A stretch of DNA of 64,000 nt, from positions 544,001 to 608,000 of the forward strand of contig CM000432.1 of assembly GCA_000165345.1 (NCBI GenBank). The letters are read 5' to 3'. The position numbers were made by a program. Shown one piece after another: positions 57,001 through 60,000 of the stretch; position 1 is the stretch's first letter, and each line of letters begins with the position of its first letter.

Positions 57001-60000
57001 ATACTAAAATATTGCAATTAGCTTCTTTCATCACCTCTAGTAATCTAATAGTTCCAACAACATTATTTTCGTAGTATTCTAATGGTTGGGAAACTGAAAC
57101 TCCAACAGCCTTAAGTCCTGCAAAGTGAATCACAGCATTGTACCTCTCTTTCAAAAACAAATCTAACATCCTTTCTTTATCTCTAATATCAATTTCAAAG
57201 AAAGGAACCTTAACTTTGGTGATTTTTTCAATCCTGTTTACAACTTCGGGGTCTGAATTTGAAAAATTATCTAGTATATGAACAGAATAACCCTCTTCAA
57301 TAAGAGCTATTACGGTATGACTACCTATGTAGCCGGCTCCACCTGTACATAAAATTTTTATCTCGCTTTTACTCATTTTTTAGAATATAGTGAAAAATAT
57401 TTGTGTGCGCTGTGGTATGCATAATATTTTTTTCGCATTGTCTGCGAATACATCATTTTCCCTAAACATGCTCGAAAAAAAAAAATCTGAATTTTATTTT
57501 GTGATGAAGAGTAAACTTCGAACTAATTAAAAATTAAGAACAAAGAAACTTCATTTAATATTTTTGGAATGATATTAATAAATATCTCAAAAATAAGATA
57601 ATTTTAAGAAAAGTTTTAATATGAATTAAAAATTCATTCTAAAAGCTTCTCAAAGATGATTAATAAGGAGAAAAGAATTGATCAGGAAAGGATATTTTTA
57701 GATAGCTTTGACTATTCAGAGCTAGAAAAAGCCGACCCAACACTATCAGGCGGTTTTAATGTTGTATATAGAAGAACTTGCCCTGTTGAAATTAGATTAA
57801 TAGATTCAGACGATGTGGAAGAAATTGGAACAACAGAGAATATTAATTTTAGGGTAATGATAAAAGGAGCGAAGTCGCTCCCTGACACTATAAGATTTGA
57901 AATAACATGCGATAATGATCTTTTTCTTTTTTACACACGCGATTTTTCAGCCTCAGATTTTAACGAGCTGAAGGTTGTGCAAAATCTTGTCTGTGATTAT
58001 AGCGACTTCACAGAAACATTTTGCAGAATAGTAAATAATACTATCCAAGATCAATTGGGATGTTTTGCAAAGTTTTGCCTCAGAGTTGATGGAAGTGCAA
58101 AGTTAACTTTTATTCAAGTTATGGAATATAAATTTTTAGAACTGCTTTCCATTGACTTTCAGCAGACTCCAGAAGAAATAATAAGAAACTCGATTTCTTT
58201 TAGATACTCCTTTATGAAAAGTAAAGTTGCATTAATGGAAGGAAGGTTCTTAGAAATTTCAAATCTGTTAAGCATCAGAAATCCAAATTTATTACATTAT
58301 TTACAGAAAAATTCAAATTGTATTAGAAACAAGTATTAGAGTTGCTTGACTAATTAAATAATTCTCTATCTCCCCTTTTTGTATATTCCAGTATTTATAT
58401 CAATTATGTCTTTTTTAATACAGTCAACTACAGTTCTGTTTACTTCAAGAGATACATTACATGTTCTAGAGAGCAAATATTCAATTGAAAATTCAACAAA
58501 TGCACTGCTGGTTCCTATAGAATTTAGAAATACATTTAGATTCTCATCGCCTTGCAATCTTAAATTTGAAAATGAATCCAAAAAATCAAAATTGAAGTCT
58601 TCCTCTGGCTCTTTAGTTTCAAAGAGTTTTTCATCTAAAATTTCTTCAAACATTAGTGGAATACCTTTATTATTAATGGCGCTATCGTGTATTTTGGATC
58701 TAACTTGCGAATAGACTTCTTGTAGACTTTTTTCTTGAAAATCGTTGGAAAAAATGTGTTTAAAGTCATGCTCAACTAGTAAATATATTTCTCTCCTACT
58801 CAAATCATTTATAATAAATTCAGAAGCCTCATCAACAGCATAATACTTAACATAACTCAATAGTTTATTATAGTATAAATTTGCTCGTTTAATCCTTTCT
58901 CTGCCCATATCTCGAGCAGATTCAATCCGCTCAAATAAATCTTTGGAAGTTAGTTTTTTCTCTTGAATTTCCAATTTTTCTTCTGATTTTTTTCGTCTAA
59001 AAAAATTTTTATTTGGTCTGGAATAATTAAATATACGCTTTAAATTAATAATTTCTCCGCCTTCAAATTCATTTTTCATCGAGCGTAATTGAAGCCTGTT
59101 ACTTAAGTGAGCAATATTTATATGAGAATCTTTGTCATCATTTATGTCGGAATTTTCAAATACGAATTTTTCATTGACTTTTTTAGTTGATGAAGTACAA
59201 TTAATACTATTCCGTTTATTATTTAACTGATCAGATTTACTTAGTATCTTACCCCTAAATATTTTAATCATATCATTAAAATTTTTCCTTTGGTTACTTT
59301 TAAATATGTATGCATCATTATTCTCGAGTGACTCTGACATTTCAAGTTAAATTTTTTTTTTTTTTTTACCTTAAAATATTCCCGGCAAAGTTTTGTTCGC
59401 AGTAATAAATATTTTTTTCAAAATATTTTAAAAATCAGAAGAAAGATAAAATATTGGCAAAATGACATGAATTACAACGTAAACTTATTATAACAAGAGT
59501 AAAAAACTTCAAAACATTTTATTACGCATTAAACAAACGTCTTGAAAACATAATTCTTAATTCTATATTTCTAATGTTTGTTTGCTACATGAAATGTTAG
59601 GCAAAAGATTTAGAATTTCTTCGTATGAAGTATATTATTTTAAAGAATTTTTTTTTTTTTTTTGAATACATCACTTTTCCCTAATTAGCGCCAGTAGAGT
59701 TCATTTTTCTCTACTTTATGACAATGGTGCAGCCCAAAAAGAAATTTAGAAAAATCAAATTACAAGATGAAAATTATGTTTGGAAAAGAGGATCTATTGA
59801 AAGGAATATTGATGATAGTTTAAATTCTGGTAAATTATTTACTTTTGATACTAAGATACTTTTTAATTCACGAAGTAACTTGGATCGTAAGAAAAAAAAC
59901 TGTGATACTATTAAAAAAAGATGCAAGCTTAAGTATTTTAACAAGGATGGTGCTGATGCAAGTATGTCTAAGCGGCCTTTGAAGAAGGTTCGTAACCTCA

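What the first reader, a model, noticed from the sequence alone, without database searches (positions are those of the whole stretch)
57656..58339. SAS-6 head-domain-only protein (SAS6L-like) lacking the coiled-coil rod
The ORF is only 227 aa, yet it carries a clear SAS-6 N-terminal/PISA signature (DNDLFLFYTRDFSASDFNELKVVQNLVCDYSDFTETF). Canonical SAS-6 is 600-700 aa with a long coiled coil that builds centriolar cartwheels. Head-only SAS6-like proteins are associated with apical-complex structures in apicomplexans. This supports the lineage assignment and is a compact cytoskeletal-organiser candidate.
Basis: partly seen in the sequence, partly recalled or inferred. Interest (0 to 1): 0.55.

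Follow-up and report, generated by a model that had tools for sequence, protein, structure and literature searches.

The report
Cryptosporidium parvum SAS6L conoid protein

Summary
The ORF at 57656..58339 (+) is real: 227 aa, ATG to TAG, with the quoted peptide at residues 86-122. It matches Pfam SAS-6_N over the whole profile (E 7e-33). Its best solved-structure match is Toxoplasma gondii SAS6L from the conoid-fibre cryo-EM entry 9y9z (E 1e-41, 37% identity over residues 14-220). Canonical SAS-6 heads score far lower (E 1e-10 or weaker).

There is no long coiled-coil rod. The gene is single-exon, a convergent gene ends 26 bp downstream, and every Cryptosporidium orthologue is 222-232 aa.

"Head-only" needs one correction. 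A conserved ~55-residue helical tail follows the head. It has about four heptads (180-205) and a family-wide K/R-N-P-x-L-L break, and it lies where the SAS-6 coiled coil begins.

The window is C. parvum: the protein is identical to EAK87839.1 and QOY42178.1. The same sequence is already listed as the reciprocal-best-hit orthologue of TgSAS6L in Koreny et al. 2021, and de Leon et al. 2013 already noted SAS6L in Cryptosporidium. Verdict: observation confirmed, interpretation supported, already known, low interest. The conoid role in Cryptosporidium is inferred from Toxoplasma and Plasmodium, not shown.

The parts
57656..58339 (+). Complete single-exon SAS6L gene (227 aa plus TAG stop)
   Evidence: ORF list and sequence. 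The identical protein is called as a 227-aa gene in NCBI CP044419.1 and in Logan assemblies. It is identical to C. parvum EAK87839.1 and QOY42178.1.
57695..57763 (+). N-terminal extension before the Pfam head (residues 14-36, FLDSFDYSELEKADPTLSGGFNV), with a family-conserved D-P-x-L motif
   Evidence: Aligns with TgSAS6L residues 20-42. D27 and P28 are the most common residue in 80-90% or more of 90 family representatives.
57764..58159 (+). SAS-6 N-terminal head domain (residues 37-168), including the PISA-motif region
   Evidence: Pfam PF16531, E 7.1e-33, profile 2-135 of 135. The AlphaFold2 model has pLDDT 80-95 over this region. Foldseek aligns it to SAS-6 head crystal structures at TM-score (target-normalised) 0.75-0.88 and rmsd 2-4 A.
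57911..58021 (+). Q-x-L)
   Evidence: Coordinates. D88, L89, F90 and L91 are 88-92% conserved across the family, and Q109 and L111 about 90%.
58127..58129 (+). Tyr158, aligned with the hydrophobic knob of the SAS-6 head-to-head (N-N) interface (Phe145 of Chlamydomonas SAS-6)
   Evidence: In the HMMER alignment, query MEYKF lines up with CrSAS-6 NDFKQ, and the 6zzc variant shows E at this site. Across the family the position is Y in 61% and hydrophobic or aromatic in 88%; the neighbouring K159 is 92% conserved. It is Y or H among Cryptosporidium orthologues.
58169..58333 (+). Conserved C-terminal helical tail (residues 172-226)
   Evidence: Aligned with TgSAS6L up to its residue 228. Predicted helices at 172-187, 192-208 and 210-226, at low monomer confidence. 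Conserved in 90 representatives: R183 91%, Y184 74%, P210 92%, L212 81%.
58193..58270 (+). Short heptad-repeat stub (residues 180-205, about 4 heptads): the likely homodimerisation coiled coil
   Evidence: Eight consecutive hydrophobic a/d positions: I180, Y184, M187, V191, M194, F198, I201, L205. These positions are hydrophobic in 83-99% of family members. Foldseek aligns about 200 columns to the CrSAS-6 head plus six-heptad constructs.
58277..58285 (+). R-N-P helix break (residues 208-210), part of the family-wide K/R-N-P-x-L-L motif that ends the heptad stub
   Evidence: Family conservation: K208 65%, N209 67%, P210 92%, L212 81%.
57377..57655 (.). 279-bp AT-rich intergenic region shared with the divergently transcribed UDP-glucose 4-epimerase gene; presumed to hold both promoters
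   Evidence: Sequence and ORF positions. The promoter function is inferred, not tested.

Best explanation
This is the Cryptosporidium parvum orthologue of SAS6L, the short paralogue of the centriolar cartwheel protein SAS-6.

Shown here: it has a full SAS-6 head domain and a short conserved helical tail, and it lacks the long coiled-coil rod. It is much closer to Toxoplasma SAS6L than to any SAS-6.

Inferred from the Toxoplasma conoid-fibre cryo-EM structure and the conservation seen here:
- Two chains pair through the ~4-heptad stub (residues 180-205).
- Dimers join head to head through the SAS-6-type interface, with Tyr158 in the knob position.
- With no long rod and a different geometry, the result is a straight array lying along the tubulin protofilaments of the conoid fibres, not a nine-fold ring.
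- These arrays stiffen and bridge the fibres of the invasion organelle of sporozoites and merozoites.
For: - Pfam SAS-6_N at E 7e-33 over the full profile.
- phmmer against PDB: TgSAS6L (9y9z) at E 1e-41 over query 14-220, against E 5e-11 or weaker for SAS-6 heads.
- Foldseek: the top seven hits are 9y9z SAS6L chains, with up to about 215 aligned columns and 34-36% identity.
- Deep search: 651 relatives. The best 150 are nearly all 130-310 aa and match query residues ~15-220. The few long ones are fusions to unrelated domains or carry no coiled-coil tail.
- A SAS6L profile built without Cryptosporidium sequences gives 236 bits over residues 10-221.
- The tail heptads and the Tyr158 knob position are conserved.
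- The identical sequence is listed as the reciprocal-best-hit orthologue of TGME49_301420 in Koreny 2021.
- Literature: the SAS6L family lacks coiled-coil tails, forms filaments when overexpressed, and is present in Cryptosporidium (PMC3697468). TgSAS6L homodimers form three linear arrays per conoid fibre with SAS-6-like interfaces, and its loss is synthetic lethal with loss of CF1 (PMC12819142). SAS6L sits in the conoid body (PMC7951837). In the Zeng et al. conservation table it is scored present in all ten apicomplexan taxa listed, including C. parvum.
Against: - No localisation, expression or interaction data for the Cryptosporidium protein were found in the searchable literature.
- The Toxoplasma neighbours of SAS6L (CF1, CF5, CIP3, PRP) are scored not conserved in C. 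parvum at BLAST E 1e-18, so the binding context may differ.
- The C. parvum conoid is shorter than that of Toxoplasma (PMC12819142).
- The AlphaFold2 monomer model gives the tail low confidence (pLDDT below 50), and no dimer model could be run.
- Tyr158 is His in two Cryptosporidium lineages.
- SAS6L knockouts in Toxoplasma and Plasmodium have mild or no phenotype, so the functional weight is uncertain.
Confidence: 0.85

Rival explanations
1. It is a true SAS6L orthologue, but in Cryptosporidium it works somewhere other than the conoid fibres. Candidates are the preconoidal rings, the apical polar ring, the nuclear-pole microtubule-organising centre, or the basal-body-like structure that nucleates the microtubules of the non-flagellated male gamete.
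For: - The Toxoplasma partners CF1, CF5, CIP3 and PRP are scored not conserved in C. parvum.
- Trypanosome SAS6L sits at the flagellar basal plate, so the location is lineage-dependent.
- Cryptosporidium male gametes have a basal-body-like structure nucleating singlet microtubules (PMC4441282).
- Early work placed TgSAS6L at the preconoidal rings.
Against: - Super-resolution imaging and cryo-EM place TgSAS6L on the conoid body and fibres.
- Plasmodium SAS6L marks the apical complex of ookinetes and sporozoites (PMC4919640, PMC8293464).
- Cryptosporidium has a conspicuous conoid.
- The Zeng et al. table scores SAS6L present in Babesia and Theileria, where Marques et al. found no SAS-6. This fits an apical role rather than a flagellar one.
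Confidence: 0.12
2. It is a canonical SAS-6 gene that looks short because of a wrong gene model (missed downstream exons), or because it is a truncated pseudogene.
For: It shares the head domain and an aromatic knob residue with SAS-6. One paper reports a 'divergent SAS-6 orthologue' in C. parvum without giving a gene identifier (PMC4441282).
Against: - The ORF ends in TAG, with a convergent 324-aa gene ending 26 bp downstream.
- The longest open stretch on the + strand before the next + gene is 118 aa. It is antisense to that gene and is not heptad-like.
- Orthologues down to 48% identity keep the same length and C-terminus.
- The tail aligns end to end with TgSAS6L.
- It scores about 100 bits higher against SAS6L than against SAS-6.
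- There is no second SAS-6_N segment anywhere in the 64-kb window.
Confidence: 0.01
3. It is a chance ORF or a non-coding region with a spurious motif.
For: None.
Against: Pfam E 7e-33; 651 homologues; conservation across the genus; a confident head-domain fold.
Confidence: 0

Closest known systems
Toxoplasma gondii SAS6L (TGME49_301420; PDB 9y9z, conoid-fibre cryo-EM)
   Same: Same architecture: N-terminal D-P-x-L segment, SAS-6 head, short heptad tail, K/R-N-P-x-L-L break and terminal helix. 37% identity over 207 aligned residues, E 1e-41, and the best Foldseek hit. Koreny 2021 lists the two as reciprocal best hits.
   Different: The C. parvum protein is 227 aa against 263 aa, with shorter termini. 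The Toxoplasma partners CF1, CF5, CIP3 and PRP are not detected in C. parvum at the published cut-off. Localisation and assembly have been shown only for Toxoplasma.
Plasmodium berghei SAS6L (PBANKA_1414900) and Trypanosoma brucei SAS6L
   Same: Same short SAS6L family (PMC4919640, PMC3697468). The Plasmodium protein marks the apical complex of mosquito-stage zoites and its deletion gave no overt phenotype. The trypanosome protein forms filaments when overexpressed.
   Different: These sequences were not compared directly here. The trypanosome protein localises to the flagellar basal plate, a structure Cryptosporidium lacks.
Canonical SAS-6 (Chlamydomonas Bld12p 3Q0X/3Q0Y/6ZZ8; zebrafish 2Y3V/2Y3W; Leishmania 4CKP)
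   Same: Same head-domain fold (Foldseek E about 1e-10 to 1e-12; target-normalised TM-score 0.75-0.88 for head-only chains). There is an aromatic residue at the N-N knob position, and the first heptads of the coiled coil are in the same place.
   Different: Only about 23% identity. The long coiled-coil rod that forms the cartwheel spokes and the disordered C-terminus are missing: about 4 heptads against a 600-700-aa protein. The SAS6L relative forms straight arrays rather than nine-fold rings (PMC12819142).

Membership tests
SAS6L (SAS-6-like) family | Contains the SAS-6 N-terminal head domain with the PISA motif | tested here: met
   Pfam PF16531, 114 bits (cut-off 25), E 7e-33, full profile. 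Head fold confirmed by AlphaFold2 and Foldseek.
SAS6L (SAS-6-like) family | Short protein (about 200-300 aa) lacking the long coiled-coil tail of SAS-6 | tested here: met
   227 aa to a TAG stop. No downstream exon is possible. Orthologues are 222-232 aa. The only heptad-like segment in the tail is the ~4-heptad stretch at residues 174-211.
SAS6L (SAS-6-like) family | Groups with SAS6L rather than SAS-6 when the shared ~200-aa conserved domain is compared | tested here: met
   146 bits to TgSAS6L against 46 bits or less to SAS-6 heads. 236 bits to a SAS6L-only profile. The top 150 of 651 relatives are short SAS6L-type proteins. Reciprocal best hit of TGME49_301420 in Koreny 2021. Caveat: no formal tree with broad SAS-6 sampling was built here.
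SAS6L (SAS-6-like) family | The conserved domain extends beyond the head into a C-terminal helical segment shared across the family | tested here: met
   Tail residues 172-219 are aligned and conserved in 90 representatives, including R183, Y184, P210 and L212.
SAS6L (SAS-6-like) family | Self-assembles into filaments or linear arrays; localises to the conoid (apicomplexans) or the flagellar basal plate (trypanosomes) | not testable with these tools
   Known only for Toxoplasma, Plasmodium and Trypanosoma. No Cryptosporidium data were found.
Canonical SAS-6 (centriolar cartwheel protein) | N-terminal head domain with a hydrophobic knob residue mediating head-to-head contacts | tested here: met
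   Head domain. Tyr158 aligns with CrSAS-6 Phe145.
Canonical SAS-6 (centriolar cartwheel protein) | Long parallel coiled-coil rod that forms the cartwheel spokes | tested here: not met
   The protein ends 59 residues after the head domain, with only about 4 heptads.
Canonical SAS-6 (centriolar cartwheel protein) | Forms nine-fold rings and localises to centrioles or basal bodies | not testable with these tools
   No data. Cryptosporidium has lost flagella, delta- and epsilon-tubulin and centriole components (PMC10056924).

The most novel reading that the evidence does not exclude
In Cryptosporidium the recognisable Toxoplasma partners of SAS6L (CF1, CF5, CIP3, PRP) appear to be missing, and only CPH1 and SAS6L of the twelve conoid-fibre proteins are scored conserved. 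SAS6L arrays might therefore bind conoid tubulin directly and be a core, possibly essential, determinant of a minimal ancestral conoid fibre. A related possibility is that this gene is the only functional SAS-6-family protein left in a parasite that has lost flagella and centriole components.
Probability: 0.15. Interest if true: 0.4.

Novelty: already known. Interest (0 to 1): 0.1.

Why it matters
For genome annotation, it fixes a name. GenBank calls this protein 'hypothetical' in C. parvum and gives its orthologues in three other Cryptosporidium lineages wrong enzyme names; it should be SAS6L. For biology, it is one of only two Toxoplasma conoid-fibre proteins scored as conserved in Cryptosporidium. 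That makes it a ready marker for the Cryptosporidium conoid and a small, tractable subunit for asking how a SAS-6 head builds straight arrays instead of rings. None of this is new in kind: the family, its presence in Cryptosporidium and the atomic arrangement in Toxoplasma are all published.

Tried and rejected
1. Missing downstream coiled-coil exon. Rejected: there is a TAG stop and a convergent gene 26 bp away, the only long downstream open stretch (118 aa) is antisense to that gene, and orthologues end at the same place.

2. A second SAS-6 family gene in the window. An HMM of the Cryptosporidium orthologues searched against the six-frame translation found only this ORF.

3. Canonical SAS-6 proteins hidden among the closest relatives. 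The long proteins in the top 150 carry unrelated domains (CDK5RAP3, Tim17, Polysacc_synt) or tails that are not coiled coil, which suggests merged gene models. None has a SAS-6-type coiled-coil tail.

4. Finding the cgd gene identifier or any experimental work on the C. parvum protein. Nothing turned up in the searchable papers or supplements.

5. Deciding whether the 'divergent C. parvum SAS-6 orthologue' of Marques et al. 2014 is this gene. The paper gives no identifier, so this stays unresolved.

6. A homodimer structure prediction. The tool folds single chains only, and the monomer model leaves the tail at low confidence.

7. A further database search for a Cryptosporidium canonical SAS-6.

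Full report
**Observation.** The window holds an ATG-to-TAG ORF of 227 codons at 57656..58339 on the + strand. The open frame begins only 12 codons upstream and has no earlier ATG, so the start is unambiguous.

**Source organism.** The window has about 30% G+C and closely packed genes. The protein is identical to Cryptosporidium parvum EAK87839.1 (Iowa II, 'hypothetical protein') and QOY42178.1 (CPATCC_001791). It lies on CP044419.1 of assembly GCA_015245375.1 with the same neighbours. Orthologues were found in eight other Cryptosporidium lineages, including C. sp. chipmunk genotype I (95%), C. ubiquitum (89%), C. felis (74%), C. xiaoi and C. ryanae (71%) and C. muris (49%). All are 222-232 aa, and the alignment has 80 invariant columns.

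**Family assignment.**
- Pfam SAS-6_N (PF16531) matches residues 37-168 over profile positions 2-135 of 135, at 114 bits (cut-off 25) and E 7e-33.
- Against all PDB sequences the best hit is chain 20 of 9y9z, a 263-aa 'SAS-6 N-terminal domain-containing protein' present as 41 chains. It scores E 1e-41 and 146 bits, aligning query 14-220 to residues 20-228.
- Canonical SAS-6 heads follow far behind: Chlamydomonas 46 bits, zebrafish 29 bits, and a third 'SAS-6 homolog' entry (6z4a) 23 bits.
- 9y9z is the cryo-EM structure of the Toxoplasma conoid fibre, and the chain is TgSAS6L, TGME49_301420.
- An AlphaFold2 model built from the Cryptosporidium alignment is confident for the head (pLDDT 80-95 over roughly residues 30-170) and poor for both termini.
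- Foldseek against the PDB returns seven 9y9z SAS6L chains first (E down to 4e-19, up to about 215 aligned columns, 34-36% identity). Next come the Chlamydomonas head-plus-six-heptad constructs (about 200 columns), then head-only crystal structures (target-normalised TM-score 0.75-0.88, rmsd 2-4 A).
- An exhaustive HMMER search of 1.84 billion representatives gives 651 relatives, 238 of them below E 1e-10. The best 150 have a median length near 227 aa and match query residues ~15-220.
- The few long proteins among them carry unrelated domains (CDK5RAP3, Tim17, Polysacc_synt) or tails that are not coiled coil, which suggests merged gene models. None has a SAS-6-type coiled-coil tail.
- A profile built from 89 of these short proteins, excluding Cryptosporidium, Toxoplasma and Chlamydomonas, scores the query at 236 bits over residues 10-221.

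**No rod, but not head-only.** The stop codon is followed after 26 bp by the end of a convergent 324-aa gene. The longest + strand open stretch before the next + gene is 118 aa and is antisense to that gene. The C-terminus (…NKY) is conserved across species. No exon can therefore add a coiled coil.

The 59 residues after the head are nonetheless not junk:
- In one register, I180, Y184, M187, V191, M194, F198, I201 and L205 give eight consecutive hydrophobic a/d positions, about four heptads.
- Across 90 divergent family members these positions are hydrophobic in 83-99%.
- R183 (91%), Y184 (74%), P210 (92%) and L212 (81%) are strongly conserved, defining a K/R-N-P-x-L-L break after the heptads.
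- The tail occupies the position of the first heptads of the SAS-6 coiled coil.
- Tyr158 aligns with Phe145 of Chlamydomonas SAS-6, the knob of the head-to-head interface. It is Y in 61% of the family and hydrophobic or aromatic in 88%, though it is His in two Cryptosporidium lineages.
- A conserved D-P-x-L segment precedes the Pfam domain.

**How it most likely works.** The shown part is the architecture and homology above. The mechanism is inferred from relatives:
- de Leon et al. 2013 defined SAS6L as proteins sharing the ~200-aa conserved domain with SAS-6 but lacking the coiled-coil tail. They showed filament formation on overexpression in Toxoplasma and Trypanosoma, and noted SAS6L in Cryptosporidium (PMC3697468).
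- Koreny et al. 2021 placed TgSAS6L in the conoid body (PMC7951837).
- Zeng et al. [quoted passage not shown] There are three arrays per fibre, partly within a bridging complex with CF1, CF5 and CIP3. SAS6L depletion alone is mild, but it is synthetic lethal with loss of CF1 (PMC12819142).
- Plasmodium SAS6L marks the apical complex of mosquito-stage zoites, and its deletion gave no overt phenotype (PMC4919640).

By homology, the C. parvum protein would dimerise through its heptad stub, polymerise head to head through the Tyr158 interface, and decorate or bridge the conoid fibres.

**Uncertainties.** I found no experimental data on the Cryptosporidium protein. In the conservation table of Zeng et al., only CPH1 and SAS6L of the twelve conoid-fibre proteins are scored present in C. 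parvum; CF1, CF5, CIP3, PRP and DCX are blank. The cut-off there is a strict BLAST E of 1e-18, so absence is not proven. The binding context may therefore differ, and a different location cannot be excluded; I give that rival 0.12. Cryptosporidium lacks flagella and has lost delta- and epsilon-tubulin and centriole components (PMC10056924). Marques et al. 2014 mention a divergent C. parvum 'SAS-6 orthologue' lacking the critical residues but give no identifier, so I could not tell whether they meant this gene.

**Novelty.** The identical 227-aa sequence is in the supplementary orthologue file for TGME49_301420 of Koreny et al. 2021, labelled CryParIOWAATCC001590_rbh_TGME49_301420, that is, a reciprocal best BLAST hit. 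UniRef already names it 'Spindle assembly abnormal protein 6 N-terminal domain-containing protein'. The family, its presence in this genus and its atomic arrangement in a close relative are all published.

**Verdict.** Observation confirmed, interpretation supported, already known, low interest. The small additions from this work are the heptad stub and the conserved K/R-N-P-x-L-L tail motif, the conserved knob position, and the mis-named orthologues in GenBank.

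Noticed in passing
window 57656-58339 (orthologues P0001, P0004, P0013): GenBank names for this protein are uninformative or wrong. It is 'hypothetical protein' in C. parvum and C. hominis. It is 'UDP-glucose 4-epimerase' in C. tyzzeri (TRY52207.1) and C. felis, which is the function of the adjacent gene. It is 'alpha-mannosyl-glycoprotein beta-2-n' in chipmunk genotype I. These look like names transferred by off-by-one or neighbour errors.
   Followed up: partly
window 59718-60963 (+), intron 60541-60586: Two adjacent ORFs (278 aa and 124 aa) are joined by a 46-nt GTAAGT...TTTTTTTTAG intron into a 399-aa product with no internal stop. 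NCBI annotates it this way on CP044419.1, whereas another gene call splits it in two. The spliced product gives a sub-threshold Pfam Nop53 match (E 7e-4, 19.5 bits against a 24.9 cut-off) spanning both exons.
   Followed up: partly
window 58366-59340 (-): A 324-aa ORF convergent with SAS6L (26-bp gap) has no Pfam family; its only match is a chance-level ATR13 hit at E 0.07. It is called as a gene in both assemblies examined.
   Followed up: no
window 56339-57376 (-) and 55113-56159 (-): The divergent upstream neighbour is a clear UDP-glucose 4-epimerase-type NAD-dependent epimerase (Pfam GDP_Man_Dehyd and Epimerase, E 1e-56 and 9e-50). The next gene is a glycerophosphodiester phosphodiesterase (GDPD, E 3e-39), whose start differs between annotations: 338 aa against 348 aa.
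   Followed up: no
window 61068-62948 (+): A 626-aa ORF with no significant Pfam family; the only match is a sub-threshold Peroxin-22 hit at E 0.009.
   Followed up: no
deep-search proteins P0093, P0150, P0113, P0061 (not in the window): Some relatives in public assemblies carry the SAS-6_N domain fused to CDK5RAP3, Tim17 or polysaccharide-synthesis domains, or to a long tail that is not coiled coil. These are most likely merged gene models rather than real architectures.
   Followed up: partly
literature, PMC4441282: Marques et al. 2014 report a divergent C. parvum 'SAS-6 orthologue' lacking the critical residues but give no gene identifier. Whether C. parvum has a canonical SAS-6 in addition to this SAS6L, or whether that report refers to this gene, remains unresolved.
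   Followed up: partly
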